This document shows positions 31,865 through 42,615 of a stretch of 47,259 nucleotides of DNA, in pieces. The stretch covers positions 1 to 47,259 of the forward strand of contig JACQSS010000045.1 in the NCBI GenBank assembly GCA_016211195.1, given 5' to 3'. The stretch comes from Candidatus Woesearchaeota archaeon. GTDB lineage: Archaea > Nanobdellota > Nanobdellia > Woesearchaeales > JAGVYF01. The translations under genes and the position numbers were made by a program. Positions within the stretch are counted from its first letter, which is position 1. Each line of letters starts with the position of its first letter. The notes below the pieces were generated by a model. It was not told where the DNA came from. It ran no database searches and saw nothing but the letters and a program-made list of their open reading frames with translations.

Positions 31865-31963
31865 GTTTGTGGTCGGGGAAATGGCTCATCCGGAAAGAGG
31901 AGTGCATCATTTTTCTGAGGCAAAAAGCAAACGTTTTTGAGCTGCCTGCCGTTGTCCGGCTGC

Positions 31964-32641
31964 ATGACCCATGTCGTGTTTCGGGACGATGATGTTGATG
32001 AGGTGAGTGATCAATTTCTTGCGTATCGTGACCTTATGAAAAAGTATGAGATGCCTGTTACCTATGCGGTCATTCCGGGAAGGACCAGTCCATCAAGTGC
32101 TCAGAAACTTAAGTCATTGAAAACAGCGAAAGATGTTTTTGTCCAGCACGGCTGGATGCATACGAATCATGGGACAGACACACAAAAGGCGGAGTTTGGA
32201 ATGCGCGAACCTGAAATAGAACAGCAGGAAATTCTTGCGGGGTATGCAAAAATGAAGGACCTTTTCGCAGATGATTTCCTGCCTGTTTTTGTGCCACCAT
32301 ATCATGCATATACACAGCACACATGGCATGCTGCACAGGAAGCGGGCTGCAAAGGATTCTCAGCAAAAAAAGGGCAGCCTGTCTGGGCAGGAATGAGGTC
32401 CCTCCCTGCGCATATTCTTTTTGATATCTATCGGGATGGGAAGCATTCATTTCTATCTGCACAAACAGCACTGCGGCAGTTCCTCTTTCTAAGAAAGCGG
32501 CCATTTGTCATCTTCCTGACGCATCACAAAAATATTGATTCATATGAACGTACCGAGCTGGAAAAGGTACTCCGGTTCCTCAGTCAGCTAAAGATGCGGG
32601 GTAAGGTGACGTTCTGTTCATTTGGAGACTTATTGCAATGA
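31964..32641 (+). CDS. Putative polysaccharide deacetylase-like protein
   Basis: The ATG at 31964 gives MTHVVFRDDDVDE... followed by ...YAVIPG... and HGWMHTNHG. An Asp-rich motif plus a His pair recalls divergent carbohydrate-esterase or deacetylase folds. The stop overlaps the next ATG (ATGA at 32638-32641). The family assignment is tentative. Confidence 0.45.
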   Translation: MTHVVFRDDDVDEVSDQFLAYRDLMKKYEMPVTYAVIPGRTSPSSAQKLKSLKTAKDVFVQHGWMHTNHGTDTQKAEFGMREPEIEQQEILAGYAKMKDLFADDFLPVFVPPYHAYTQHTWHAAQEAGCKGFSAKKGQPVWAGMRSLPAHILFDIYRDGKHSFLSAQTALRQFLFLRKRPFVIFLTHHKNIDSYERTELEKVLRFLSQLKMRGKVTFCSFGDLLQ

Positions 32642-33591
32642 AAATCATTAATCTTACTTTGGAAGTGACAAACAGGTGCAATATGCGCTGTGCCATGTGC
32701 GGCATCTGGGAAGAGAAGCAGAAAAAGGAGCTTTCAGTCAAGGAAGTTTCAACTTTATTTCATCATCCGCAGATCACGTACCCGGTTGGCTCCGTCTCAT
32801 TGACTGGGGGTGAGGTTTTCCTGCACTCAAAACTGGATACGCTCTATCGATATCTGTATCTGATGAAACGCCAAAAGAAAGTTGCAGCGATTGACATCGT
32901 GACCAGCGGCTATCTGACCGAGCAGATACTTGGCTTCCTTGAAAGAAACAAGGAATATCTCTGGGGGCTGGAGATGGACATCAGTCTTGACGGGCTCGAA
33001 GAAAAACACACTATGCAGCGTGGCTGGCCTGATGCATGGGCACGTACATGGAGGACTATTGATGCAATCAAGGCATTGTATCCATCGGTGAGGATAACAG
33101 CAAAATATACTATCAACGCATTAAACATCGATGATATTATGCCGGTTTACACGTTGTGCATGCAACGGGGCATTGCATTTCTCCCGAAATTCGTCGAGCA
33201 GGGGACAACTGCGTACTATCATCGCGTGCCAAAGCAGCATTCGCTTTTCATGATGACTGAAGAGAAACGGACCAAAGCGCTTGCCATTATCCAAGAGATT
33301 GCCTGCAAGGAAAAGGACAAGAAGCGCGCTGCACTCCTCAAGGAGCTGGTTGCATTGAAGGGCATGAAGGAAAATGTCACCACCTGCGGAACACCAGAAC
33401 AATCGCTATTCGTGACAGCGGATGGTTCTGTGCATGCCTGCATTTACATGCAGCCGATAGGGAATGTGTTTTCTCCTTTGGTCTTAGAAAATGCATGTCA
33501 CGCGGAACAGGTCGCTCGCGGTAGGGGCGGCACTTGCCCGAAATGTATCGCATATCACGGCTATCTCAGGAGCTGGAACTGTAGAAATTAA
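32638..33591 (+). CDS. Radical SAM enzyme with SPASM/twitch-like C-terminal Cys motifs
   Basis: The radical SAM CxxxCxxC motif is CNMRCAMC. C-terminal motifs are CGTPEQSLFVTADGSVHACIYMQPIGNV and GGTCPKC. Confidence 0.8.
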   Translation: MKIINLTLEVTNRCNMRCAMCGIWEEKQKKELSVKEVSTLFHHPQITYPVGSVSLTGGEVFLHSKLDTLYRYLYLMKRQKKVAAIDIVTSGYLTEQILGFLERNKEYLWGLEMDISLDGLEEKHTMQRGWPDAWARTWRTIDAIKALYPSVRITAKYTINALNIDDIMPVYTLCMQRGIAFLPKFVEQGTTAYYHRVPKQHSLFMMTEEKRTKALAIIQEIACKEKDKKRAALLKELVALKGMKENVTTCGTPEQSLFVTADGSVHACIYMQPIGNVFSPLVLENACHAEQVARGRGGTCPKCIAYHGYLRSWNCRN

Positions 33592-34648
33592 TGATGGCAT
33601 TGCAGACGACATCAACGTCTTTGGTATCCATCAATGGATAGAGTGGTAGAATAAGGGCTTCTCGTGTGTATCGTTCGGCCTGCGGAAATTGCTGGCTTGC
33701 GGTGTACGACGAAAAGAGTGGTATGCGGTGCAGCGGCAGGTATGGTTCTTTACAAATGATACCCTCTTTGGCCAAAGAAGCCATCAGCTCGTCTCGTCGA
33801 GGAGCATAGACGAGGTAAGACTGGCGAATGGACTGAGTACCGGGAGGGTCCCTGATAAGAGTAATGGGTGTCTGTGCCAAATGCGCTTCATACCGGGTAC
33901 GACACTCGTGCTTACGCTTTTCAATGAGGGATGCAACTTTCACCTTGACGTGCAGGGTTGCCATGTCACCATAGGACATCTTGCCCGGCGTCCTGTTGCA
34001 TTGGAGCACAGACGGATGTGCCTGCTCGATAGACAACATGGAGTGGATGCGTTCCCGATCCTCCTTGTGTTTGTATACTAATGCCCCACCTGTTCCTACA
34101 GAGGCGATTGTCTTGAACGGGTCAAACGAAAATGCCCCATATGTTCCGAATGAGCCCACCATGACACTACCTACCCGCGTTCCGTGTGCCTGACAACAAT
34201 CCTCTATCACTGAAACCCCTTTTTTTATGAGGACATCAAGAGCTGCGGCATGGCCATACATGTGAACGGGAATAATGCACCGCGTCTTTTCAGTGATGGT
34301 TACTTGTTGCTCATCGATGGTACAATCATCCTTGATATCAACAAAGCGAGGCAGAGCCCCGCAGGCCAGGATGGCTGCGATTGTAGATGGCCATGAGAGG
34401 ACGGGGAGGATAACGTCGTCGCCTACGCCAATTCCCACAAGCCGGCATGCGAGATACAGGGCAGTTGTCCCTGAATCAACAAATGTACACAGAGGTGTGC
34501 CAACATATTTAGCAAAAGCAGATTCCACATCCCGTTTATACGAAAAGAGCTGCTCAATGCGGCCCAAGGCATAGAGTGCACGGAACTCTTTCTCGATAAG
34601 CGGATAGAGCAGGCGATTGACTCGCATATCATCATGCGCTATCACCAT
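33566..34648 (-). CDS. DegT/DnrJ/EryC1/StrS-family PLP-dependent sugar aminotransferase
   Basis: Motifs seen are ...FAKYVGTPLCTFVDSGTTALYLA..., ...DDVILPVLSWPSTI..., IPVHMYGH, VIEDCCQAHG and SFDPFKTI (the putative PLP-Lys). Confidence 0.85.
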   Translation of the reverse strand: MVIAHDDMRVNRLLYPLIEKEFRALYALGRIEQLFSYKRDVESAFAKYVGTPLCTFVDSGTTALYLACRLVGIGVGDDVILPVLSWPSTIAAILACGALPRFVDIKDDCTIDEQQVTITEKTRCIIPVHMYGHAAALDVLIKKGVSVIEDCCQAHGTRVGSVMVGSFGTYGAFSFDPFKTIASVGTGGALVYKHKEDRERIHSMLSIEQAHPSVLQCNRTPGKMSYGDMATLHVKVKVASLIEKRKHECRTRYEAHLAQTPITLIRDPPGTQSIRQSYLVYAPRRDELMASLAKEGIICKEPYLPLHRIPLFSSYTASQQFPQAERYTREALILPLYPLMDTKDVDVVCNAIINFYSSSS

Positions 34649-35772
34649 CTAATCGCCTGTGCTGTGTTTTTTATCCCATCGAAACAATTCTCAGGGAGCT
34701 GCTTGGGGTGTAGTTGTAGGGCTTTCCGCAGGGCTACAGCAAGTGATGGTGTTGTGAGCTGCTCATAGCTGTGTGTCACGCTAAAGCCGAGTTGTTCTGC
34801 CATGAACGCCCGGTATCGTTGTTCCAGATAAAAGTTATTATTCTCTTTCTCCCGGGGGACAAGGACGCTGGGGGTTCCACAATAGAGCAACTGTACCACC
34901 GTCCCATACCCAGCCATGTTGATGCACGCGCGGGCAGATGCAAACAGGCCAGAAAGGCTTGCAACATGAGGATGAAGTTGCACATGGTAACAATTTGCCA
35001 GCTTGGTAAAGAGATGTAGTTCTGCTGGAGATGAAGCTGGCCCGGGCACACAGACGAACCTGTAGTCGGGAAATTGAGACGCAAGCTGGAGGCCGTATGC
35101 GATCAGCTTCGGGTAGATGACGCCACCTCCCCGCGACAGGAGAATCATGGGTTCACGGTTGGTTTTCTTGAGTGTGGATGGGAGGACATAACCAGTAAAT
35201 AAGAGAATATCATATTTTTTGAAAAAGGTGTTATACCATGCTGCAGTGGATGAAAGACCTTCTTTCTCAAGAAACACCTGCAAGAAATGAAGATCATACT
35301 CCTTAGGGGTATGAACGAACAACCGGTCAAACAGGGGAATCCATTGCTCTACTTTATGGATCGGCGTGCTGACGACCGGGTAGCCAATACTTGCATACAG
35401 TTTGACACCCTTTCTCTTGAGCCAGTGGAGAATGGGTAGCAGCTCAGGTGCACAGTCTTCACGACCAAAGGGGAAGTATTCTGTCATGAAAATATCGGGT
35501 GCAAAGCGTGTCAGTGCATCATACATCGTTTGTATTCTTTCTTTTACCTGCACTGTCGTGGGCTGCTGCATCGCCCCCCTGAAGACTTGCTTGGAATAAA
35601 AGGGGTAGGGAAGATTGATGACGGGAAATGGGCTCAGAGCAGACAACGGCTTGCCCCCTTGTAGGAAAAGAAAATCAATGTGTGAAAGTGCATGAAGTCC
35701 TTCTGCCAATGCAAAGACCCTTGTCGTATGACCAAGTGTCTCACAATGGGTGAAGTAGAATGCAAGACGCAT
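34642..35772 (-). CDS. Glycosyltransferase, GT28/MurG-like (COG4671-like)
   Basis: The N-terminus has ETLGHTTR (a GxGHxxR-like motif). The C-terminus has MAGYGTVVQLLYCGTPSVLVPRE......EQRYRA. It overlaps degT by 7 nt. Confidence 0.65.
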   Translation of the reverse strand: MRLAFYFTHCETLGHTTRVFALAEGLHALSHIDFLFLQGGKPLSALSPFPVINLPYPFYSKQVFRGAMQQPTTVQVKERIQTMYDALTRFAPDIFMTEYFPFGREDCAPELLPILHWLKRKGVKLYASIGYPVVSTPIHKVEQWIPLFDRLFVHTPKEYDLHFLQVFLEKEGLSSTAAWYNTFFKKYDILLFTGYVLPSTLKKTNREPMILLSRGGGVIYPKLIAYGLQLASQFPDYRFVCVPGPASSPAELHLFTKLANCYHVQLHPHVASLSGLFASARACINMAGYGTVVQLLYCGTPSVLVPREKENNNFYLEQRYRAFMAEQLGFSVTHSYEQLTTPSLAVALRKALQLHPKQLPENCFDGIKNTAQAIRW

Positions 35773-35793
35773 ACGGTGCAGCTCGGATAAAGC

Positions 35794-35801
35794 TATTTAA
35801 A
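35794..35801. promoter_or_regulatory. Bidirectional TATA box (TATTTAAA / TTTAAATA)
   Basis: The centre is at 35797.5. The minus-strand ATG at 35772 is 25.5 nt away. The plus-strand in-frame ATG at 35824 (MEGYIK...) is 26.5 nt away, whereas the ATG at 35806 is only 5 nt from the box. Confidence 0.6.
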
Positions 35802-35805
35802 GGTA

Positions 35806-36939
35806 ATGGCACTTGGCGGCCAGATGGAGGGTTATATCAAGGCATTATTGCAGGCATTTCCTGAATATGATGTCGGCGACTGGGCACACGTTCCTGTCAC
35901 GACTCGTCAGAAGATTGAACAATGGACATTCAGACAATGCAAAGACAAACCCGTCCTTATCTCGATGACGAGTGGCAGCTCAGGCACGCCTGCTACGATT
36001 TTCCATTCGGCTGCGTCTGTTCAGGCGAAAATTGAACGTGCCCAGCACCTCTTTGCACCGCTTTTTCAGGATAATGACCATGTTTTTTATAACCTTCTTG
36101 GCAGGTTCTGCATCACGAAAAAAACCGCAGAGCTTGCATTCCTCGGCTTGGGGAAATTATGCATCTCATTTGGGATTCCTTCAGAGAAAAATGCCAAGGC
36201 AATTCTTCATGCAACTGGGATGCGGCAGCCGGATGGGCTGCTTGCGACAACAGGGGGGCTGTCATCATTGCTTGAGCTGAAGATTCCTATCACAACAAAA
36301 TATGCTTTTGTGGGTGGGTCGTTGGGAACGAAAGAGTTCACAGAATGGGTCATCACATCACTCCAGTGCAGATACATCAATACCTATGCCTGCAATGAGT
36401 TTGGTGTCATTGCCGCTGATATTGGCGGAGACGGATTAGTCGCCGGAAGCAACATTTTCCTTGAGGTGTTGACTGAACAACAGGAAATCAAAGAAGAAGG
36501 TGTCGGGAAATTGCTTGTAACGGACTACACAAATTACGCGATGCCTTTTATCCGGTACGTGTTGGGTGATAAGGTTGAACTGAGAAAGAAGAATGGACAT
36601 GTCTGCATTACGGTGCTTGGGCGCAATGACCAATTTATCAATTTCGATCAAGTGCTTGTCTCATTGCCCTCACTCCTCGAGACCGTCAAGAATCTCCTGG
36701 GGCATGAGAAATTTTATGTCGCGATCTCACATGAGCAAAAGACGCTTTTTGATTGTGCGAAGGTCCATATCCCAGTCGGAGATGAACAGAAAGAAGGTGT
36801 CCTCAGAGAGCGCGTTCATGCATTGATAGGCAGGACCCCAAAAATAATCGTCACAGAGAAATTTTTTCGGGCGCAAAATGGGAAGTATCTCCAGTTCTTT
36901 GACCTGCGCAAGGCACCTGCACAGGGAGCCCATTGGTAG
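35806..36939 (+). CDS. Adenylate-forming enzyme, coenzyme F390 synthetase / phenylacetate-CoA ligase (PaaK/CapK)-like
   Basis: The AMP-binding P-loop is SMTSGSSGTPATIFHS, and the about 370-aa length fits. The likely true start is the ATG at 35824, based on promoter spacing. Confidence 0.7.
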   Translation: MALGGQMEGYIKALLQAFPEYDVGDWAHVPVTTRQKIEQWTFRQCKDKPVLISMTSGSSGTPATIFHSAASVQAKIERAQHLFAPLFQDNDHVFYNLLGRFCITKKTAELAFLGLGKLCISFGIPSEKNAKAILHATGMRQPDGLLATTGGLSSLLELKIPITTKYAFVGGSLGTKEFTEWVITSLQCRYINTYACNEFGVIAADIGGDGLVAGSNIFLEVLTEQQEIKEEGVGKLLVTDYTNYAMPFIRYVLGDKVELRKKNGHVCITVLGRNDQFINFDQVLVSLPSLLETVKNLLGHEKFYVAISHEQKTLFDCAKVHIPVGDEQKEGVLRERVHALIGRTPKIIVTEKFFRAQNGKYLQFFDLRKAPAQGAHW

Positions 36940-37798
36940 GGAGATACACCGTATATGTCCTCGTCTGCTTTGCCCAGTGCTCCTTATAGTGTCCATAACC
37001 GGTGTCAAAATTGATTTCATACTCTTCTGGCAACTGGAAAAGGTACTGGAGCGAGAAATAAACAAGTGCCTTTCCGGGACTGAGCACCTCCGCACTCGGG
37101 TCATAGACCATGGAAAAGAGATTGAGCCGCTGGCCCATCCGCACCCAGATAATAGCCCCCAGAGAAGCTCCATCCCGTTGCAGCTCGAATGCAAAAATAT
37201 CATGTGGTCTTGTTTTCAGGAGCAGATAGACGTATGTCATCAGTTCTTTGCTGTTGTAAAATGACGGCCCAAAACGCGCCCGATGCATGACAAAAAAGTC
37301 GCCCATCCTGGCCGATACGTGGGTGACTGGGACGCATGAGAGCTGTACCCATTTGTTCTTTCTTCGTCGTAGTTCCTTTCTCCAGCCCGGCCCGAGTCCT
37401 TGAAGGTAAGATGAGAAATCCTGCATAGAAGGTTTGACAAAAAAGTATTCTGTAGAGAGGATATTGGTGTGATTGGGTAGCTGCTGCTGGCCAGCAAGAC
37501 AGAAAGAATAGTGAGTATTACCAAGCGCCCCATCAAGATGGGCAGGCTCATCCCCAAGAAAGCCATCGCCTAACAGGAAGTCGCTGAGTGCTTGAAAGTA
37601 TGGCCCCTTTTTTTCCATGACCAGGAGAAAACCCTGCTCAAATGTAAGAACGTAGGGTTGTGCATGCGCTGAGAAAACGTGATTGAATGCAGTAAGTGTG
37701 TCCAGAAAAAAAAGTGTTTTCCAGTGCTTCGCTGTCTTTACCTTCTCGAGGAGACTAGACAAGACGGGGCTGGTGGGTGTCAAGAGTGACACTTGCAT
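36851..37798 (-). CDS. GNAT-fold acyltransferase, CelD / BioF2-like / FemAB-like (Acetyltransf_6-like)
   Basis: The C-terminal ...FELQRDGASLGAIIWVRMGQRLNLFSMVYDP....SPGKALVYFSLQY.......INFDTGYG.YKEHWA matches the CelD/FemAB-like pattern. The ATG lies 2 nt after the peptide gene stop. The 3' end overlaps the ligase gene by 89 nt in convergent orientation. Confidence 0.65.
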   Translation of the reverse strand: MQVSLLTPTSPVLSSLLEKVKTAKHWKTLFFLDTLTAFNHVFSAHAQPYVLTFEQGFLLVMEKKGPYFQALSDFLLGDGFLGDEPAHLDGALGNTHYSFCLAGQQQLPNHTNILSTEYFFVKPSMQDFSSYLQGLGPGWRKELRRRKNKWVQLSCVPVTHVSARMGDFFVMHRARFGPSFYNSKELMTYVYLLLKTRPHDIFAFELQRDGASLGAIIWVRMGQRLNLFSMVYDPSAEVLSPGKALVYFSLQYLFQLPEEYEINFDTGYGHYKEHWAKQTRTYTVYLPTNGLPVQVPCAGQRTGDTSHFAPEKISL

Positions 37799-37800
37799 GG

Positions 37801-38043
37801 TCAGCAGCCATCCTGGTGCTGGCTATGGTGGCTATGGGAACCGACTGCATTGGGGTCAACATAATTCAGAGAGAGAGAATTGGAATGAGGTGTGCTATCT
37901 ATGTGGTGTGCAGACACACTCGTGGACAAGCCCACTAATGTCCCTAATGCAACGCCCGCTTTGAGAATATTTTTTTTTGTCATTGTCCCTTTTTCATCAC
38001 GGACAAAGGCACCAAGGTCACGCTTTATCTTGGGAAGATCCAT
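37801..38043 (-). CDS. 80-aa His/Ser-rich putative precursor peptide (HxsA-like) with signal-like segment
   Basis: The sequence is MDLPKIKRDLGAFVRDEKGTMTKKNILKAGVALGTLVGLSTSVSA|HHIDSTPHSNSLSLNYVDPNAVGSHSHHSQHQDGC. The hydrophobic h-region ends in SVSA. The core is rich in His and Ser, with a single Cys as the last residue. It lies immediately downstream of a rSAM/SPASM gene and has its own TATA box. Confidence 0.6.
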   Translation of the reverse strand: MDLPKIKRDLGAFVRDEKGTMTKKNILKAGVALGTLVGLSTSVSAHHIDSTPHSNSLSLNYVDPNAVGSHSHHSQHQDGC

Positions 38044-38065
38044 GGTTATACAGAGTCATACTGTG

Positions 38066-38073
38066 TATATAAA
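38066..38073 (-). promoter_or_regulatory. TATA box (minus-strand TTTATATA) dedicated to the 80-aa peptide gene
   Basis: The centre at 38069.5 lies 26.5 nt upstream of the ATG at 38043, consistent with a leaderless mRNA. The box sits directly next to the rSAM stop codon (38076-38078). Confidence 0.55.
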
Positions 38074-38075
38074 GA

Positions 38076-39554
38076 TTACTTGTGGCAGCTTTTCGGCTCG
38101 GTGGGATGGGGTAACTGGGGAAGGGAAACCCAGCCCATGAAGATGGGCAAAGCCTTCGGGTCTGACACGATTTTCTCAAAGAGCCAGCTGAACTGTGCGA
38201 AGTAGATTTTATGGCGCATGGACTCTTTCATCTTCGGGAGGATATTGCCTTGCTCAGACACATTGAGGACTGGACACGTCCCACACCATGGCAAATATGC
38301 ACAGGTCTTACAGGTATAGTTATCAAGGATTGACGCCGCAATCGTGGACAACAAGGTATCAGACGCCATCATGTCCGTGTACTGATCTTTCATGACATGG
38401 CCGAGCTTGAAGAGATCTTCACCCAGCATTCTGCCCTCATCGCACGTGTACACACTACCATCATATTCGTATGCGATTTGTGTTCTGCCTGCGCCGCAAG
38501 GGGACATGAGCTCTGTATAGAAGGGATCCTGCTTTTTCAGAATTTTAGTAAGCATGGTTGCCAGCAACCGCTCTTTGATGGGGACACCTTTTTTATTGAG
38601 TTCAAGGATATAATCAGCAGCCGCTTGCCAGAAGGAGATAAATTCTTCAGCAGTATATCCAATCTCTTTCCACCTTGTGACAGCAATACCAAGGTAGTTT
38701 AGTGGCCGCAAATGGATTTCAGGCAAATGATGGGCAACATACTCGTCAACAATCTCCTTTGGATAGGGAAGCGACTGTTTGGTAATGGTGGGGAGTGCAC
38801 CAATGGGATGTGTACGACTGCGCAATGTCCCTTCGTGCTGGATGGCTCTTATCCATTTGGTCACCAGATGGTGCGTTGCCTGCTCACCACGCAATGGACG
38901 GTTTCTGTCATGCACCACAGCCGGCCCATCGAGTGAGGTACAAATTGAAACCTGATTGTCCATGAGAAACTGTATTTTATCGTCTGTCATGAGGCTGAGG
39001 TTGGTCACCGCAGTGATGCGGAGATCTTTCTTTTCTAATTCATTTAATTTACGGGCATTCTCGATAATGAATTGGACAATGGGCCAGTTGAGGAGGCATT
39101 CGCCTCCCTGAAACTCAATAGTAACAGCCTTGCTTGGCGTGCGGAAGACATTCTCGAGCACTTTGATTGCTGTCTCCCGTGTCATATCGACACCTTTGGC
39201 TATGGGTGCGCTGGTATGGCAGTATGAGCAATTGAAGTTGCACCGTGACGTGACAGAGATAATGTGGAGACTTGGTCCATTGAGCATATTGGCATTAATG
39301 CTCCGATAATTGCGCACAATCTCCTTCAGGTTCTCATCTGTCGCCACAAGACCTGCCCGGGCGAGTGTCATGTATAAAGGAGACGCAACATCGACGGTTC
39401 TTCTTTGCACATGGGCATATTCGTCCGCGTCCAGCAGAACCCATGACCCATACCGTGTGGTCAAAAGATATTTGTGCTTAATGGGGAGGACATTGTACGG
39501 CAGCAACCCTTTAATATCAGTGACTTGCATGGGACCGCACCTCTGCAAGAACAT
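38076..39554 (-). CDS. Radical SAM/SPASM peptide-maturase-like enzyme (HxsB/anSME-like)
   Basis: The radical SAM motif is CNFNCSYC. SPASM motifs are CGAGRTQIAYEYDGSVYTCDE and CKTCAYLPWCGTCPV. An N-terminal about 95-aa pre-domain (LLPYNVLPIKHKYLLTTRYGSWVLLDADEYAHV) is typical of peptide-modifying rSAMs. An alternative ATG is at 39530. Confidence 0.85.
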   Translation of the reverse strand: MFLQRCGPMQVTDIKGLLPYNVLPIKHKYLLTTRYGSWVLLDADEYAHVQRRTVDVASPLYMTLARAGLVATDENLKEIVRNYRSINANMLNGPSLHIISVTSRCNFNCSYCHTSAPIAKGVDMTRETAIKVLENVFRTPSKAVTIEFQGGECLLNWPIVQFIIENARKLNELEKKDLRITAVTNLSLMTDDKIQFLMDNQVSICTSLDGPAVVHDRNRPLRGEQATHHLVTKWIRAIQHEGTLRSRTHPIGALPTITKQSLPYPKEIVDEYVAHHLPEIHLRPLNYLGIAVTRWKEIGYTAEEFISFWQAAADYILELNKKGVPIKERLLATMLTKILKKQDPFYTELMSPCGAGRTQIAYEYDGSVYTCDEGRMLGEDLFKLGHVMKDQYTDMMASDTLLSTIAASILDNYTCKTCAYLPWCGTCPVLNVSEQGNILPKMKESMRHKIYFAQFSWLFEKIVSDPKALPIFMGWVSLPQLPHPTEPKSCHK

Positions 39555-39738
39555 AATTTATAAATTCCCGCGCGACCTTTTTTTCAGTATCGGGGTACGT
39601 CAGGACAATATAATCTCCATCCTCATCAGTGACTGTATGCAAAAATGCTGCATACATTTCTATGCAGGCAAGGAGAATCTCTTTGGGGTACAATGTTTTG
39701 TGAAACTTACTGCTGCTCATCTTTGATTTCCTGAACAA
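39517..39738 (-). CDS. Small HxsD-like protein (paralogue of the N-terminal half of 39707-40123)
   Basis: ...TLYPKEILLACIEMYAAFLHTVTDEDGDYIVLTYPD...AREFINYVL aligns by eye with ATYSLTTLYAAAYAFLDRAYVHLDKKDNAFVATLYPK...AKAFLAELV of the upstream gene. It overlaps both neighbours. Confidence 0.5.
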   Translation of the reverse strand: MFRKSKMSSSKFHKTLYPKEILLACIEMYAAFLHTVTDEDGDYIVLTYPDTEKKVAREFINYVLAEVRSHASH

Positions 39739-40123
39739 GCTGTTGCAGTTCAGGGTCCTTCTCTAGTTCAGTGAGCAGTTGTTTGATTTCTTCCTGTTCA
39801 GCTTTTTCTGCAAGCGCGGGATCGGTGGAGAAGAATGCACGTTCCACGAGCAGCTTCGTGGTTTCCTGCGTTTTTTCCAATTGTGCAAAATAATACCCCT
39901 GGTTGACCAGTTCTGCAAGGAACGCTTTTGCAAGGGTCGTGAAATCCTGTGCCTGCTTGGGATAGAGCGTCGCAACGAATGCATTATCTTTCTTGTCAAG
40001 ATGGACATACGCCCTGTCTAGGAATGCATAGGCCGCCGCATAAAGTGTTGTAAGCGAATATGTTGCTTCCGGCAGGAGCAGAGAGACTGCCTGCTCTGCT
40101 TCGTTGATAGTGATTCCCCCCAT
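39707..40123 (-). CDS. HxsD-like protein with acidic coiled C-terminus
   Basis: The 138-aa protein carries the motif FLAELVNQGYYFAQLEKTQETTKLLVERAFF. This loosely recalls the LLNDYxLRE signature that names the HxsD family (TIGR03976), a recollection I have not searched. It has its own TATA box at 40147-40154. Confidence 0.55.
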   Translation of the reverse strand: MGGITINEAEQAVSLLLPEATYSLTTLYAAAYAFLDRAYVHLDKKDNAFVATLYPKQAQDFTTLAKAFLAELVNQGYYFAQLEKTQETTKLLVERAFFSTDPALAEKAEQEEIKQLLTELEKDPELQQLVQEIKDEQQ

Positions 40124-40145: not shown

Positions 40146-41051
40146 TTATATAAAACTTGTTATGAGTGAGAGAAAAATACCATGCGAAACGATGGTAAGC
40201 AACACACCGAAAAATAAGCAAGGGGCAAAAGGGATCTTGTCATAGACGAGTGCAGGCTGATCAATAAGCCGAGCATCTTGCGCAGTGATCATAGCACCTT
40301 TCTTAAGCGAGGAAATGTCTTCTGCGAGAATATCACCATCATGCGGACGTTTGCGGGTAGCGAATGAGTTTGCATGGGTGGCAATGTATTGTGTTATCGC
40401 GAGAAGCAAGAATGTGTAGAGCAGGAAATGAAACCAGAATGAGAATGTTCGTAGTGTTGTGTCGGTGACGAGACGATAAACAATCAAAAGCGCTTGCACC
40501 CAAAACCCAAAAGGAAGTGTTGCAAAGACTGAAGACAGCGCCAGCAGCAGAAGGAACTGCAACACCGTGTTTGATACAAGCAATGCTGGCAGCCATGCGA
40601 GTGCAAAGACACTGAGCGCAGCATTGGCAAGAGCATGGACTGGGAAACGATGACGGAATAACGGAAGGCTGGTGAGCAGCGCAATAGGAATGAAGGTATT
40701 CATTAAAAGGACGAGCGCAGGAAAATAAGGGACATAGCCACGCTGATAGACAGAAACGGGAACCAGGAGGGCGTAGGTGATGAAAAGCTTTGCATCGCCA
40801 CCATACCACCATTTTTTCTTCCACAATGCAAGTGCGACAATAATTGACACGAGCAGATTAGAAGATGTGGTATAAACAAACGAGAAATTCAATTTCTCTG
40901 TCGTGAGAATGAAAATCGTATAGACCAGCAAGGCGATGAAAAAGACAGGTGTTACCAGTTGATTAGGAATGATCTGTTTTCGGGAGTCGTAGAATGAAGA
41001 AGCGATTCCCAGAAAGAGGATGAGGGGAAGAGTAACTGTAAGGGGGTCCAT
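40146..41051 (-). CDS. Type IV prepilin / preflagellin peptidase (A24 family, EppA/PibD/FlaK-like)
   Basis: The ATG at 41051 gives MDPLTVTLPLILFLG.... The first catalytic Asp context is SFYDSRKQIIPN and the second is WWYGGDAKLF. It is polytopic, with the conserved C-terminal IPFAP motif. The track extension to 41210 overlaps the upstream gene. Confidence 0.8.
   Translation of the reverse strand: MDPLTVTLPLILFLGIASSFYDSRKQIIPNQLVTPVFFIALLVYTIFILTTEKLNFSFVYTTSSNLLVSIIVALALWKKKWWYGGDAKLFITYALLVPVSVYQRGYVPYFPALVLLMNTFIPIALLTSLPLFRHRFPVHALANAALSVFALAWLPALLVSNTVLQFLLLLALSSVFATLPFGFWVQALLIVYRLVTDTTLRTFSFWFHFLLYTFLLLAITQYIATHANSFATRKRPHDGDILAEDISSLKKGAMITAQDARLIDQPALVYDKIPFAPCLFFGVLLTIVSHGIFLSLITSFI
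40147..40154 (-). promoter_or_regulatory. TATA box (minus-strand TTTATATA) at the head of the rSAM-peptide module
   Basis: The centre at 40150.5 lies 27.5 nt upstream of the ATG at 40123. The box overlaps the stop codon of the peptidase gene. Confidence 0.5.
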
Positions 41052-41073
41052 GCGGTGCAGAATGTGCAGAAGA

Positions 41074-42615
41074 TTATGTACTTTTCGCAAGCAGCTGCTG
41101 TTGACTTGTGGACAGGGAACGGACTGGTGCTGCACCAGACTCTTCAAGAATTTTGCCGGTGGGAGTTTTGACTTTGGTGTACAACCCTTCTGGAGAGAGA
41201 ATATATTCATAGGCGGCGTCCTTCACCTTATAGCGTTGCTTTATTCTGACCGCAAGGTCGTACACAACATGACTATCCCCTTTGGCCAGTGAGCGGATAG
41301 CGAGGGGGAAGAAACCACGTTCACCCAACAAGAGAATATCCTCCTTTCCCCGCGCAAGGATAATGTAATCCGCCTGACCGCGGGCGCCAATGGACAGATC
41401 AATTGCATTTTTAAGCAATGAAGAAAGTGCACCCTGACCAAAGGTGAGCCCCGCCGTAGGGGGCGAAAATGTCGCGTGGCCGGTCAGCATCGGTCGCCTA
41501 TCTTCGACAGGCTGCAGGACCACGCCTGTCTGGGGGGAGAAAAGGCGGGTGTTCGTCTCGTAAACACCTTGCACGTATCGTGTCACCCCGGGTGCAAGCC
41601 AGAGCAGGAGGGATGATGCATCGAGTGTCAGCGCACCGTTCACTTCGGCAACAGAAACGATGGTCTCACCAACTGGATCGATAATGAAAAGACCATAATG
41701 ATTCCGAACACCACGCTTTGTCTGTGAGAGCGTATAGAGATTAGTGCCTTGACCATTAAGAACATCGATTGTGCTCGCACGTGTGATAACTGTGTCGGTT
41801 CCCTTGTTCAGTGCTGCGGGAACCTGGGTTGTTGTTCCGTCAAGCGAACTAATGGTCGTGCCCTTGTCAGTGAATTGGAACCCAGCAGATGGAGTGGCCT
41901 TTGCATCTGCGACGTTTTTTGCAGCTTCTCGTCCCGCTGCGCTTTGCGTTAATGGGAGACATGGCCCCAGGCAGCACATGCTGTTTTGCGAACTATCTGC
42001 AGTGACTATTTGCTCTGCACATGAATTCTTCAGCAGACTGCATTTTGTCCCGCCAATGGCGCTGCATAGAACAGCTTTCTCACGTTCCGGGGGAGGCGGA
42101 GCAGCTTGGGGGGTGCTTGGCGTTTCCGGAACAGGTTTTAATGCACCCATAAGCGCGGCAACGCCTTGTAGGAGTCCACCAAGACTAGCTAATGACTGAG
42201 ACATGTCCTGTTGTGGTCGCTGCCGGCCACCACCCAGCTGTTCTTGTGGTGGTGACCTGATATCAGCCCCTTGTTGCATTGCCATTTCGGGTGAACCGAC
42301 TTGCTCCGCGGGCTGGCCATCTGCTTCGACGACATCACCCAACCGGTCCTGTGTCCCGGGACCACGGACATCCATTTTCTTTTCTGCCAGCGCTTCCCGC
42401 ACGTCAGGATCTTTTAGTTCCTTTTCCTGCGACAATTTATCACATGCGCCGCAATCGCTCCCCTCGCTGCATGCACCTTCTGGGCAGGATGCGATGTCCT
42501 GCTGGATTTCTTCGGGTGTGTCCTCTAGCTCAGCGTCTTCGCCTTCCTGTGGAGTGTCTCCCCATGAGAGCATTGCACCGAACAAAAGGAAAATCAGAAA
42601 GAAACTAACCCTCAT
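41074..42615 (-). CDS. Secreted protein of unknown family, paralogue 1
   Basis: The ATG at 42615 gives MRVSFFLIFLLFGAMLSWG, with GAGGA 7 nt upstream. It has an acidic and Pro/Gln-rich variable region, the LGGLLQGVAALM motif and a Cys motif. A about 300-aa C-terminal domain is shared with 42605-44662 and 46671-47258. Confidence 0.8.
   Translation of the reverse strand: MRVSFFLIFLLFGAMLSWGDTPQEGEDAELEDTPEEIQQDIASCPEGACSEGSDCGACDKLSQEKELKDPDVREALAEKKMDVRGPGTQDRLGDVVEADGQPAEQVGSPEMAMQQGADIRSPPQEQLGGGRQRPQQDMSQSLASLGGLLQGVAALMGALKPVPETPSTPQAAPPPPEREKAVLCSAIGGTKCSLLKNSCAEQIVTADSSQNSMCCLGPCLPLTQSAAGREAAKNVADAKATPSAGFQFTDKGTTISSLDGTTTQVPAALNKGTDTVITRASTIDVLNGQGTNLYTLSQTKRGVRNHYGLFIIDPVGETIVSVAEVNGALTLDASSLLLWLAPGVTRYVQGVYETNTRLFSPQTGVVLQPVEDRRPMLTGHATFSPPTAGLTFGQGALSSLLKNAIDLSIGARGQADYIILARGKEDILLLGERGFFPLAIRSLAKGDSHVVYDLAVRIKQRYKVKDAAYEYILSPEGLYTKVKTPTGKILEESGAAPVRSLSTSQQQLLAKST

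What the first reader, a model, noticed from the sequence alone, without database searches (positions are those of the whole stretch)
37801..38073. Candidate precursor peptide has its own leaderless promoter and a twin-lysine Tat-like signal
A perfect TTTATATA box lies 26.5 nt upstream of the ATG at 38043, squeezed between the rSAM stop codon and the peptide gene. A separate strong promoter for the substrate gene is a common feature of RiPP clusters. The peptide has a about 20-aa charged N-terminal segment (MDLPKIKRDLGAFVRDEKG) that could serve as a leader. Next comes T-K-K-N-I-L-K-AGVALGTLVGLSTSVSA, which parallels the Tat consensus S/T-R-R-x-F-L-K with KK in place of RR. A 35-aa His/Ser/Asn-rich core follows, ending in a lone Cys. 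Only one strict H-x-S triplet (HHS) is present, so it is His/Ser-rich rather than a clean HxS repeat.
Basis: seen in the sequence. Interest (0 to 1): 0.65.

Follow-up and report, generated by a model that had tools for sequence, protein, structure and literature searches.

The report
Archaeal HxsA precursor with own promoter
This small gene in a tiny DPANN archaeon encodes the histidine-rich substrate peptide of a His-Xaa-Ser radical-SAM system; it very probably has its own consensus leaderless promoter and an ordinary Sec-type export signal behind a long conserved leader, not a Tat signal.

Summary
The sequence facts are correct. An 80-aa ORF lies at 37801-38043 (-). TTTATATA at 38073-38066 starts 30 nt before its ATG, 2 nt after the HxsB stop.

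The promoter reading is supported by computation only. Position -30 is this genome's modal TATA-to-ATG distance. The site scores 18.85 bits on the genome's own promoter matrix, rank 21 of 1129 genes, and 0 of 20,000 random sites reach it. One ortholog keeps TTTATATA at -30 although synonymous sites are saturated. Of 30 related precursor genes, 25 have a TATA box directly upstream. Such promoters are a genome-wide habit, so this is not a RiPP hallmark.

The peptide is a divergent HxsA3/A4-like precursor with one HxS triplet. It has a conserved 29-aa leader, a short hydrophobic region ending VSA|HH (signal peptidase I type), and a 35-aa His-rich core with conserved His and Asn positions.

The Tat reading fails. 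The second Lys is Glu, Gln or Asp in relatives, no TatC was found in the genome or its close kin, and KK is not RR.

The cassette differs from the published bacterial HXS antiphage system. It has no HxsC, has two HxsD paralogues, and carries a dedicated A24 peptidase that is syntenic in 16 of 17 DPANN loci. This scan had already noted such A24-bearing HXS variants on other DNA.

The parts
38066..38073 (-). TATA box TTTATATA of the peptide gene; first T is 30 nt before the ATG
   Evidence: sequence.: -30 is the genome-wide mode; matrix score 18.85 bits, rank 21 of 1129; the same box at -30 in ortholog contigs L061-L066.
38074..38080 (-). BRE-like stretch AGTAATC. The hxsB stop codon TAA (38078-38076) supplies the conserved A(-4) and A(-3).
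   Evidence: the genome consensus upstream of TATA has A at -3 in 84 of 103 sites and A at -4 in 54 of 103. The window matches both, and also T at +19 (64 of 103).
37801..38043 (-). hxsA-like precursor gene, 80 aa plus TGA stop; predicted leaderless mRNA starting at or next to A38043
   Evidence: NF038309 HxsA3, E 8.9e-7, 28.6 bits (below the cut-off of 65); orthologs at 73-76% identity; pN/pS 0.21-0.26 with pS about 0.8.
37954..38043 (-). Leader or n-region, residues 1-30 (MDLPKIKRDLGAFVRDEKGTMTKKNILKAG), ending at near-invariant G30
   Evidence: F13, E17 and K23 invariant; P4, K7, G19 and G30 conserved in at least 90%; a leader HMM finds 30 relatives, nearly all directly downstream of hxsB.
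37909..37953 (-). Hydrophobic h/c region, residues 31-45 (VALGTLVGLSTSVSA), with a VSA|HH signal-peptidase-I-type site
   Evidence: small-x-Ala motif at the end of the hydrophobic region in most of the relatives inspected by eye. The h-region is about 13-20 uncharged residues with 10-residue hydropathy (KD10) about 2; archaeal signal peptidase I is present in the genome.
37804..37908 (-). His-rich core, residues 46-80 (HHIDS...HQDGC)
   Evidence: H53, N55, H70, H73 and H76 conserved in at least 90% of 20 relatives; no Lys or Arg, net charge -3.
38076..39554 (-). hxsB, radical SAM/SPASM maturase (492 aa)
   Evidence: TIGR03978, 422.8 bits against a cut-off of 370. Radical_SAM plus SPASM domains.
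39517..39738 (-). HxsD-like small protein (73 aa)
   Evidence: NF038315, 51 bits against a cut-off of 41.
39707..40123 (-). HxsD-type protein (138 aa)
   Evidence: TIGR03976, 38.9 bits (cut-off 50); homologs upstream of hxsB in relatives.
40147..40154 (-). TATA box of hxsD, at -31 and inside the 3' end of the A24 gene; promoter of the enzyme genes
   Evidence: perfect TTTAWAWA at -31 for gene 39707-40123, spacer 22 nt.
40146..41210 (-). A24-family (prepilin-peptidase-like) membrane aspartyl peptidase linked to the hxs genes (354 aa); candidate leader protease
   Evidence: PF01478, E 1.2e-7; both Asp motifs present (FYDSRKQIIPN, WYGGDAKL). A24-hxsD-hxsB-hxsA on one strand in 16 of 17 DPANN loci; a second, canonical A24 gene lies elsewhere (contig C55).
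36851..37798 (-). GNAT (Acetyltransf_6) gene starting 2 nt after the peptide stop; probably co-transcribed from the peptide promoter
   Evidence: PF13480; conserved with the same 2-nt junction only in the congener G143.

Best explanation
Identity. The ORF is a real gene for a divergent, repeat-poor HxsA-type precursor. It belongs to a His-Xaa-Ser radical-SAM cassette of a DPANN (Woesearchaeota/Nanoarchaeota-type) archaeon. Gene order on the minus strand is: A24 peptidase | TATA | hxsD, hxsD-like, hxsB | TATA | hxsA, GNAT.

Expression (inferred from sequence statistics and conservation). TBP/TFB bind the consensus BRE/TATA at 38080-38066. Transcription then starts at or within a nucleotide or so of A38043. 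This gives a leaderless mRNA with no Shine-Dalgarno sequence, which lets the cell make the substrate in excess of, and independently from, the enzymes driven by the hxsD promoter.

Peptide anatomy (shown by alignment). There are three parts:
- a conserved, net-positive leader of about 29 aa (xPKIKKxxxxFxxxExGxxxKxxxxKxG);
- a short hydrophobic stretch ending in small-x-Ala (VSA|HH);
- a 35-aa His-rich core with conserved H53-x-N55, H70, H73 and H76.

Maturation and export (inferred by analogy with the bacterial HXS system and RiPP logic). HxsD-type proteins and HxsB bind the leader and modify the core in the cytoplasm. The hydrophobic segment then takes the peptide through Sec. Signal peptidase I releases the core outside the cell. 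The cassette's own A24 peptidase probably handles the leader at the K-x-G junction.

The KK pair is part of the conserved leader, not a Tat motif.
For: Family and context:
- HxsB is over its curated cut-off, HxsD-like is over its cut-off, and the peptide hits HxsA3 along its full length.
- Relatives with the same leader pass the HxsA4 cut-off (88.4 and 59.4 against 55).
- HxsB over cut-off is found in 88 of 401 genomes of the order.
- Small ORFs with the same three-part build lie 4-112 nt downstream of hxsB in most loci.

Coding: pN/pS is 0.21-0.26 with saturated pS.

Archaeal identity: TBP is present in 28 of 30 relatives, including the congener. Archaeal signal peptidase I is over its cut-off in the genome. 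Carriers are named Woesearchaeota, Nanoarchaeota or Micrarchaeota MAGs.

Promoter:
- Sharp genome-wide TATA peak at -30.
- All informative consensus positions are matched.
- 98th percentile of genes; 0 of 20,000 random sites equal it.
- TTTATATA at exactly -30 in ortholog contigs whose spacer is otherwise unrelated.
- 25 of 30 hxsA genes have a TATA box with at most 1 mismatch just upstream. Thirteen are at -33..-27, mostly without a Shine-Dalgarno sequence. Twelve are at -50..-36, and 7 of those have AGAGG near -10.

Signal:
- Small-x-Ala motif in most relatives inspected by eye.
- The h-region is shorter and less hydrophobic than in the window's own class-III pilin-like proteins.

Not Tat.

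A24 link.

Bacterial precedent for an exported, N-terminally processed, radical-SAM-matured HxsA: PMC13128918.
Against: - There is no transcript evidence.
- The congener G143 has a 16-nt insertion and only imperfect boxes (TTTAATAA at -48, AAATAAATAT near -31). The exact promoter is therefore not fixed even within the genus.
- The peptide is below every HxsA curated cut-off and has one HxS triplet.
- No HxsC or HxsC4 was found in the 90.7%-complete genome, although HxsC-HxsD is the proposed catalytic core in E. coli.
- No SignalP-type predictor was available. The signal-peptidase site rests on rules and conservation.
- TBP and TFB were not found in this assembly itself, presumably because they are unassembled.
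Confidence: 0.75

Rival explanations
1. The hydrophobic segment belongs to a class-III (prepilin-like) signal. The cassette's A24 peptidase cuts after the invariant Gly30 (LKAG|VALG...) on the cytoplasmic face. The His-rich peptide then stays attached to the membrane or to a filament through its N-terminal hydrophobic segment instead of being released by signal peptidase I. This partly overlaps the main reading, because both cuts could occur.
For: - A24-hxsD-hxsB-hxsA is on one strand in 16 of 17 DPANN loci with enough upstream DNA, including a Micrarchaeota complete genome, and in 10 of 19 further loci.
- The genome has a separate canonical A24 gene on contig C55, so the linked one is a specialised paralogue.
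- G30 is conserved in at least 90% of relatives, and in most of them Lys sits at -3 at the boundary between the n-region and the hydrophobic region.
- Both catalytic Asp motifs are intact.
- Earlier notes of this scan report the same protease in HXS-like clusters of other lineages.
Against: - The junction is K-x-G, not the usual [KR]-[GA].
- The n-region is about 29 aa, against 3-10 aa in the window's own pilin-like proteins.
- The h-region is only about 13-20 uncharged residues with 10-residue hydropathy (KD10) about 2.0-2.4. The pilin-like proteins have 19-27 residues and 3.2-4.0.
- A conserved small-x-Ala site follows the h-region.
- A24 also accompanies a second DPANN subtype that has no leader-type hxsA next to hxsB.
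Confidence: 0.3
2. The TTTATATA is only A/T-rich spacer. hxsA is expressed solely by read-through from the hxsD promoter as the fourth gene of an operon.
For: - The spacer is only 32 nt and the genes are on one strand with no obvious terminator between them.
- The congener does not keep the perfect box.
- No RNA data are available.
Against: - The box sits at the exact genome-wide modal distance, matches the flanking consensus positions, and ranks in the top 2% of genes.
- It is identical at -30 in an ortholog with saturated synonymous divergence.
- There is no Shine-Dalgarno sequence before the ATG. An internal cistron would therefore be poorly initiated, whereas family members whose TATA box lies farther upstream do carry AGAGG.
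Confidence: 0.1
3. The peptide carries a Tat-type signal (T-K-K-N-I-L-K plus the hydrophobic stretch) and is exported folded or cofactor-loaded by the Tat pathway, possibly from the start at 37983.
For: There is a formal resemblance of TKKNILK to S/T-R-R-x-F-L-K, followed by an uncharged stretch and an AxA-type site.
Against: - K24 is Glu, Gln, Asp or Lys in relatives; only K23 is invariant.
- No TatC was found in the genome, its congener, or the two other genomes of its family, and only in 3 of 30 relatives.
- Established knowledge: Arg-Arg to Lys-Lys replacement is the classical way to block Tat export.
- M21 aligns with Ile, and residues 1-20 are the most conserved part of the family, so the 37983 start is unlikely.
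Confidence: 0.03

Closest known systems
Bacterial HXS antiphage system, HxsD-HxsB-HxsC-HxsA (Haft's TIGR03976-03979; Li et al., Nat Commun 2026, PMC13128918)
   Same: - HxsB is over its curated cut-off and HxsD-type proteins lie upstream.
- A His-rich, exported substrate is encoded last on the same strand.
- The substrate has an N-terminal export signal and is N-terminally processed.
   Different: - The host is archaeal (DPANN). The paper reports 99.7% of systems in Pseudomonadota and does not mention archaea.
- No HxsC is present.
- There are two HxsD paralogues.
- A dedicated A24 peptidase is part of the cassette.
- The substrate is 80 aa rather than 214 aa, with no peptidoglycan-binding domain and one HxS triplet instead of five.
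- The core has no Lys or Arg (net -3), so the proposed electrostatic DNA binding does not transfer.
- Antiviral function is untested.
NCBIfam HxsA3 (NF038309) and HxsA4 (NF038313) short His-Xaa-Ser repeat proteins, with HxsD_rel (NF038315) and HxsC4 (NF038332)
   Same: - Full-length alignment to the HxsA3 profile (residues 3-77 to positions 2-77 of 81).
- Relatives sharing the leader pass the HxsA4 cut-off.
- The HxsD-like neighbour passes the NF038315 cut-off.
   Different: - The window peptide scores 28.6 bits against a cut-off of 65 and has no HxsA4 hit.
- The HGSHGS repeat array is reduced to SHSHHSQH.
- The peptide ends in Cys instead of Ser-Trp or Ser-Tyr.
- No HxsC4 is found in this genome.
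Archaeal leaderless TBP/TFB promoters (BRE plus TATA centred about 26-27 nt before the start site, as known from haloarchaea and Sulfolobales)
   Same: - The TATA centre is 26.5 nt before the ATG.
- A purine-rich BRE-like AA lies 3-4 nt upstream.
- There is no Shine-Dalgarno sequence.
- The same geometry is seen genome-wide.
   Different: - The geometry is only predicted here.
- The box sits 2 nt behind the preceding gene's stop codon, and in relatives it lies inside the hxsB coding end.
Sec signal peptides cleaved by signal peptidase I, and RiPP leader peptides
   Same: - Positive n-region, short h-region and a small-x-Ala site.
- A conserved N-terminal recognition sequence lies next to a radical SAM/SPASM maturase.
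   Different: Both functions appear fused in one 45-aa presequence. The n-region of about 29 aa is far longer than in ordinary signal peptides.

Membership tests
HxsA-type His-Xaa-Ser repeat proteins (TIGR03979, NF038296, NF038309, NF038313) | Score at or above the curated cut-off of one of the HxsA models | tested here: not met
   the only hit is NF038309 at 28.6 bits (cut-off 65), E 8.9e-7. Relatives L041 (88.4) and L011 (59.4) pass the HxsA4 cut-off of 55.
HxsA-type His-Xaa-Ser repeat proteins (TIGR03979, NF038296, NF038309, NF038313) | Several His-Xaa-Ser repeats in the C-terminal part | tested here: not met
   One strict HxS (H72-H73-S74). Relatives have 0-22. The His positions H53, H70, H73 and H76 are nevertheless conserved.
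HxsA-type His-Xaa-Ser repeat proteins (TIGR03979, NF038296, NF038309, NF038313) | Encoded next to HxsB and HxsD | tested here: met
   HxsB 422.8 bits (cut-off 370) ends 32 nt upstream. HxsD-like (51 against 41) and HxsD (38.9 against 50) lie further upstream on the same strand.
HxsA-type His-Xaa-Ser repeat proteins (TIGR03979, NF038296, NF038309, NF038313) | Homology to accepted members through the shared N-terminal leader | tested here: met
   the leader HMM gives E 4e-21 for the window peptide, and one alignment joins it to peptides that pass the HxsA4 cut-off.
HXS antiphage system (Li et al. 2026) | Four components HxsD, HxsB, HxsC and HxsA | tested here: not met
   no HxsC over the cut-off in the 90.7%-complete genome. 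The best hit (66 bits) belongs to an AAA-linked cassette elsewhere.
HXS antiphage system (Li et al. 2026) | [quoted passage not shown] | tested here: not met
   The 80-aa peptide has no Pfam domain. The core has no Lys or Arg.
HXS antiphage system (Li et al. 2026) | Protection against virus infection | not testable with these tools
   This needs an experiment, and the organism is uncultured.
Tat (twin-arginine) signal peptides | Arg-Arg in an S/T-R-R-x-F-L-K motif, conserved among orthologs | tested here: not met
   The window has K23-K24. K24 is E, Q, D or K in 17 of 20 aligned relatives.
Tat (twin-arginine) signal peptides | A TatC translocase in the genome | tested here: not met
   no PF00902 match in G000, in congener G143, or in family members G013 and G215. 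The control search finds it in 11 of 14 reference genomes.
Archaeal leaderless promoter | TATA box centred about 26-27 nt before the start codon, with BRE-like purines upstream and no Shine-Dalgarno sequence | tested here: met
Archaeal leaderless promoter | Mapped primary 5' end at the start codon | not testable with these tools
Sec / signal peptidase I signal peptide | Positive n-region, h-region of about 7-15 hydrophobic residues, and small residues at -3 and -1 | tested here: met
   The n-region has net charge +4. The h-region is VALGTLVGL and the site is V-S-A|H. The motif recurs in most relatives. Signal peptidase I is present. No trained predictor was run.
Class III (prepilin-type) signal peptide | Short n-region ending [KR]-[GA], followed by a hydrophobic helix of at least about 20 aa | tested here: not met
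   The n-region is 28-30 aa, the junction is K-A-G, and only about 17-20 uncharged residues follow. The window's own pilin-like proteins fit the rule.
Class III (prepilin-type) signal peptide | A cognate A24 peptidase | tested here: met
   a specialised A24 paralogue is syntenic with the cassette.

The most novel reading that the evidence does not exclude
In DPANN archaea the HXS system has been rebuilt as A24 peptidase - HxsD - HxsD' - HxsB - short HxsA. The conserved 29-aa RiPP leader sits in front of a Sec signal peptide. The dedicated prepilin-peptidase-like intramembrane protease removes that leader at the invariant K-x-G junction. Leader removal and export of a radical-SAM-modified peptide would then be coupled at the membrane, which is a route not described for RiPPs. 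The acidic, His-rich product would act at the surface of these ectosymbiotic cells, in metal capture or virus exclusion. The separate leaderless promoter would set substrate-to-enzyme stoichiometry.
Probability: 0.25. Interest if true: 0.7.

Novelty: new variant of a known kind. Interest (0 to 1): 0.45.

Why it matters
The HXS system has only just been shown to be an antiphage defence in E. coli, and the paper describes it as essentially proteobacterial. Here a recognisable relative sits in about a fifth of the genomes sampled from a DPANN archaeal order (88 of 401). It has a different part list: no HxsC, an extra HxsD, and its own A24 protease. Its substrates are much shorter and non-basic.

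The window peptide is the most repeat-poor member seen here, yet it keeps the leader and a handful of His and Asn positions. That narrows down which residues matter to the enzyme.

The promoter result is useful mainly for annotation. It fixes the start codon, and it shows that this genome runs on compact leaderless promoters tucked behind, or inside, the preceding gene. It also shows that the precursor is expressed independently of its enzymes across the family.

It also removes a misleading Tat annotation.

Tried and rejected
- Domain assignment from the genome itself: TBP, TFIIB and sigma-70 Pfam searches in the own assembly were all negative, and no SSU rRNA was found. Archaeal identity rests instead on relatives, archaeal signal peptidase I, promoter geometry and record titles.
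- HxsC: it was sought in the genome. The best hit, on contig C72, is a 303-aa radical-SAM enzyme behind an AAA ATPase, not HxsC. The window's second radical-SAM gene (32638-33591) is MoaA-like or generic.
- The first search for related loci attempt with the 20-sequence alignment failed for lack of a conserved stretch. It was repeated with 7 closer sequences.
- The first look-up of encoding contigs attempt failed and was repeated.
- The start at 37983 was rejected. M21 aligns with Ile and residues 1-20 are conserved.
- Plus-strand ORFs overlapping the region (37683-37964, 37777-37938, 37892-38140) have no support. The conservation pattern fits the minus-strand frame.
- The GNAT gene as a conserved member of the cassette was rejected. 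It is found only in the congener, and ortholog contigs L061-L063 have a convergent gene there.
- The separate promoter as a RiPP hallmark was rejected as an inference, because the arrangement is common genome-wide.
- dS could not be estimated because synonymous sites are saturated. Only pN/pS is reported.
Full report
**What is in the sequence**

On the minus strand, the 492-aa radical-SAM gene (38076-39554) ends with TAA at 38078-38076. Two bases later comes TTTATATA (38073-38066). Twenty-two further bases later comes the ATG at 38043 of an 80-codon ORF that ends with TGA at 37803-37801. The peptide sequence, the second in-frame ATG at 37983 (M21), the T-K-K-N-I-L-K stretch, the 35-residue His/Ser/Asn-rich tail, the single strict H-x-S triplet and the lone terminal Cys are all as described. 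Two bases after the stop, a 315-aa GNAT (Acetyltransf_6) gene starts at 37798.

**What organism**

- The window is contig C30 of a 1.11-Mb assembly with 76 contigs, 48.7% G+C and 90.7% completeness.
- Searches for TBP, TFIIB, sigma-70 and SSU rRNA in the assembly itself were all negative.
- TBP is present in 28 of 30 relatives, including the same-genus genome G143.
- An archaeal-type signal peptidase I scores over its cut-off in the genome.
- Genomes that carry the same peptide family are titled Woesearchaeota, Nanoarchaeota, Nanobdellota or Micrarchaeota MAGs.
- Earlier notes of this scan also call the genome a Woesearchaeota-type DPANN archaeon.
- I treat it as a DPANN archaeon whose TBP and TFB genes are simply unassembled.

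**The gene context is a His-Xaa-Ser (Hxs) cassette**

- The radical-SAM protein is HxsB: TIGR03978, 422.8 bits against a cut-off of 370.
- The 73-aa ORF 39517-39738 is 'HxsD-like': NF038315, 51 against 41.
- The 138-aa ORF 39707-40123 hits HxsD: TIGR03976, 38.9 against 50.
- The 80-aa peptide aligns end to end with HxsA3 (NF038309; residues 3-77 to profile positions 2-77 of 81). The score is only 28.6 bits against a cut-off of 65.
- No HxsC was found. The best hit to TIGR03977 in the genome (66 bits, contig C72) is a 303-aa enzyme behind an AAA ATPase.
- Upstream of hxsD lies a 354-aa Peptidase_A24 protein at 40146-41210.

**The peptide is a real, conserved gene**

- The 5.8-billion-protein collection holds one close homolog: P0002, 80 aa, 73% identity, from six ENA metagenome contigs.
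- The congener G143 has an 82-aa ortholog.
- Against both, synonymous sites are saturated (pS 0.81-0.86) while pN/pS is 0.21-0.26. The leader is the most constrained part, at 0.15-0.19.
- HxsB over its cut-off occurs in 88 of 401 sampled genomes of the same order.
- In the fetched loci, an HMM of the first 48 residues finds 30 peptides. Nearly all lie on the same strand 4-112 nt after hxsB.
- The peptides share a three-part build.
  - First, a charged leader: (I/L)PK(I/L)KKK(I)xxFLxxEEGKISKExL(L)KxG.
  - Second, a short hydrophobic stretch that ends in small-x-Ala.
  - Third, a His-rich core, usually with HGSHGS-type repeats and ending Ser-Trp, Ser-Tyr or Cys.
- In a 20-sequence alignment, F13, E17 and K23 are invariant. 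P4, K7, G19, G30, H53, N55, H70, H73 and H76 are conserved in at least 90%.
- Two relatives pass the NCBIfam HxsA4 cut-off (88.4 and 59.4 against 55). The family is therefore already modelled by NCBI, and the window peptide is a divergent, repeat-poor member of it.
- The terminal Cys is conserved only in the three closest orthologs.

**Start codon**

M21 aligns with the Ile of 'GKISK' in relatives, and residues 1-20 are the best conserved part. The start at 38043 stands and 37983 is rejected.

**The promoter**

- Genome-wide, TTTAWATA peaks sharply 30 nt before crude gene starts: 28 genes at -30, 9 at -31 and 6 at -29, against 0-4 at other offsets.
- Of 113 genomic TTTATATA copies, 24 lie exactly 30 nt before a start codon of an ORF of at least 50 aa.
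- Aligning 103 such sites gives a consensus of A at -4 (54 of 103) and A at -3 (84 of 103), then two free bases, then TTTAWAWA, then T at +19 (64 of 103). The window site matches every one of these. The hxsB stop codon TAA supplies the two BRE-like A's.
- On a matrix built without the site, it scores 18.85 bits. That is rank 21 of 1129 crude genes, and it is reached by none of 20,000 random positions.
- The ortholog contigs L061-L066 have TTTATATA at exactly -30. They also have AA at -4/-3 and T at +19, although the 22-nt spacer is otherwise unrelated.
- The congener differs. A 16-nt insertion leaves TTTAATAA at -48 and AAATAAATAT near -31.
- Across 30 hxsA-type genes, 25 have a box with at most one mismatch directly upstream.
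  - Thirteen are at -33..-27, and 11 of these have no Shine-Dalgarno-like sequence.
  - Twelve are at -50..-36, and 7 of these have AGAGG about 10 nt before the ATG.
- In many relatives the box lies inside the last codons of hxsB (…EKFIK = …TTTATAAA…).
- So an independent promoter for the precursor is a conserved property of the family, realised either as a leaderless or as a short-leader design.
- Before the window's ATG there is no Shine-Dalgarno sequence. Translation from a read-through hxsB-hxsA transcript should therefore be poor.
- All of this is inference from sequence.

**How special the promoter is**

It is not very special. In this genome, same-strand neighbours separated by 10-60 nt have a perfect TTTAWAWA at -33..-27 in 15% of cases, and a box with at most one mismatch in 41.5%. 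At control offsets the figures are 0.5-1% and 2-3.6%. A spacer of 31-34 nt holding 'stop, two bases, TATA, 22 bases, ATG' recurs many times. hxsD itself has a perfect box at -31 (40154-40147), inside the end of the A24 gene. The separate promoter is real but is the genome's normal way of building genes, so it is not a RiPP signature. Because the GNAT gene starts 2 nt after the peptide stop, the promoter probably serves both genes. That junction is conserved only in the congener.

**The 'Tat-like' signal**

- T22-K-K-N-I-L-K28 corresponds to S-K-E-x-L-L-K in relatives.
- K23 is invariant, but K24 is Glu, Gln, Asp or Lys.
- No TatC was found in the genome, its congener or the two other genomes of its family. 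It was found in only 3 of 30 relatives, while the control search detects it in 11 of 14 reference genomes.
- From established knowledge, replacing Arg-Arg by Lys-Lys is the standard way to block Tat export. A twin lysine therefore argues against a Tat signal, not for one.
- The reading is rejected.

**What the hydrophobic segment is**

- After the near-invariant G30 come about 13-20 uncharged residues of moderate hydrophobicity. The best 10-residue Kyte-Doolittle mean is about 2.0-2.4.
- These are followed in most of the relatives inspected by a small-x-Ala motif: VSA|H, VNA|G, AKA|D, VKA|D, VIA|D and so on.
- The n-region has a median length of 29 aa and a median net charge of +5. In the window it is 28 aa and +4.
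- The window's own class-III pilin-like proteins look different. They have 3-10-aa n-regions ending (K/R)G, then 19-27 uncharged residues with means of 3.2-4.0.
- The best fit is a Sec-type signal peptide cleaved by signal peptidase I after A45. Its n-region has been extended into a conserved maturase-recognition leader.
- No trained predictor was available, so this rests on rules and conservation.

**The A24 peptidase**

- With 5 kb of flank, 16 of 17 DPANN loci show A24 - hxsD - hxsB - hxsA on one strand. One of them is the complete Ca. Fermentimicrarchaeum limneticum genome.
- Ten of 19 further loci with at least 3 kb upstream do as well.
- The genome has a second, better-scoring A24 gene on contig C55. 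The hxs-linked protein does not even hit it by tblastn at 1e-4.
- Both catalytic Asp motifs are present in the linked protein.
- The linked protease is therefore a specialised, conserved component. Its most obvious substrate is the HxsA presequence, perhaps at the K-x-G junction. This is inferred, not shown, and is listed as a rival or extension.
- A second DPANN subtype (A24 - hxsD - hxsD' - hxsB - HxsC4-like enzyme) lacks a leader-type hxsA right after hxsB.
- This scan has already reported prepilin-peptidase-like proteases in expanded HXS-like clusters of CPR bacteria, Elusimicrobia, Omnitrophota and a DPANN archaeon. One of those reports was later marked 'part of it fell'.

**Comparison with what is known**

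Li et al. (Nat Commun 2026, PMC13128918) showed that the E. coli HxsD-B-C-A system blocks phage DNA entry.

- That HxsA is N-terminally processed and gains +8 Da on an SHRSS motif, in a manner that depends on HxsB, HxsC and HxsD. It then acts in the periplasm.
- They report 99.7% of systems in Pseudomonadota and do not mention archaea.

The window shares HxsB, HxsD-type proteins and an exported, N-terminally processed His-rich substrate. It differs in several ways.

- It lacks HxsC.
- It has two HxsD paralogues and an A24 protease.
- Its substrate has no peptidoglycan-binding domain and a core without any Lys or Arg. Net charge is -3, and 0 to -9 in relatives.

The proposed electrostatic DNA trap therefore does not carry over, and metal binding or another surface role is at least as likely. 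The function of the mature peptide is open. An antiviral role is analogy only.

**Verdict**

- The promoter and leader ideas are supported computationally.
- The Tat idea is refuted.
- The 'RiPP-typical promoter' inference is weakened by the genome-wide pattern.
- The object is a new variant of a known kind. It is an archaeal, HxsC-less, A24-linked HXS cassette with a degenerate short precursor, of a type this scan has met before on other DNA.

Noticed in passing
window 40146-41210 (-), and loci L069-L094: A specialised Peptidase_A24 paralogue (354 aa, both Asp motifs intact, no NCBIfam hit) precedes hxsD-hxsB-hxsA on the same strand in 16 of 17 DPANN loci. The genome's canonical prepilin peptidase is elsewhere, at G000 C55:1277-1609.
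   Followed up: partly
whole genome G000; examples C3:3158-7369, C45:3673-5829, C59: A recurrent compact gene junction of 'stop codon, about 2 nt, TTTAWAWA, 22 nt, ATG', with spacers of 31-34 nt. Of same-strand gene pairs with 10-60 nt spacers, 41.5% carry a TATA box at -33..-27. The genome seems to be built largely of leaderless units with their own promoters. The promoter consensus also has a conserved T 11 nt before the ATG.
   Followed up: partly
loci L031, L011, L035, L028, L026, L033, L052, L014 (3' end of hxsB): In many relatives the hxsA TATA box is encoded inside the last codons of hxsB (…W-V-x-x-E-K-F-I-K… = …TTTATAAA…). A conserved protein C-terminus and a promoter element therefore share the same bases.
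   Followed up: no
loci L042, L044-L047, L049, L054 (same order): A second DPANN hxs subtype has A24 (in some loci), hxsD, hxsD', hxsB, then directly a radical-SAM enzyme of about 320 aa (MxRVDIKTGYxCNNxCxFCVQA…) resembling HxsC4, then a membrane protein of about 370 aa. No leader-type hxsA follows hxsB, and its substrate was not identified.
   Followed up: no
window 36851-37798 (-): A GNAT/Acetyltransf_6 (FemAB-like) gene starts 2 nt after the peptide stop (TGAccATG). The same junction occurs in congener G143 (TGAgcATG). It gives a weak hit to arginyltransferase. It might add a residue or acyl group to the peptide, or it might belong to the neighbouring glycan genes (PaaK-like ligase, GT28, DegT aminotransferase, radical SAM, polysaccharide deacetylase at 31937-36939).
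   Followed up: partly
loci L032 (2886-3185 and 4031-4333) and L018 (3002-3385 and 3467-3826): Some relatives carry two tandem hxsA paralogues with near-identical leaders and promoters but different cores.
   Followed up: no
G000 whole assembly: TBP, TFIIB and SSU rRNA were not found in this 90.7%-complete assembly, although 28 of 30 relatives have TBP. The core transcription genes appear to lie in the unassembled part.
   Followed up: partly
record titles of L072, L074, L075, L078, L080, L084, L087, L096: Several public MAGs carrying this DPANN-type cassette are titled 'uncultured Methanosarcinales archaeon', 'Parcubacteria group bacterium' or 'Elusimicrobia sp.'. These are either mislabelled bins or real occurrences outside DPANN.
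   Followed up: no
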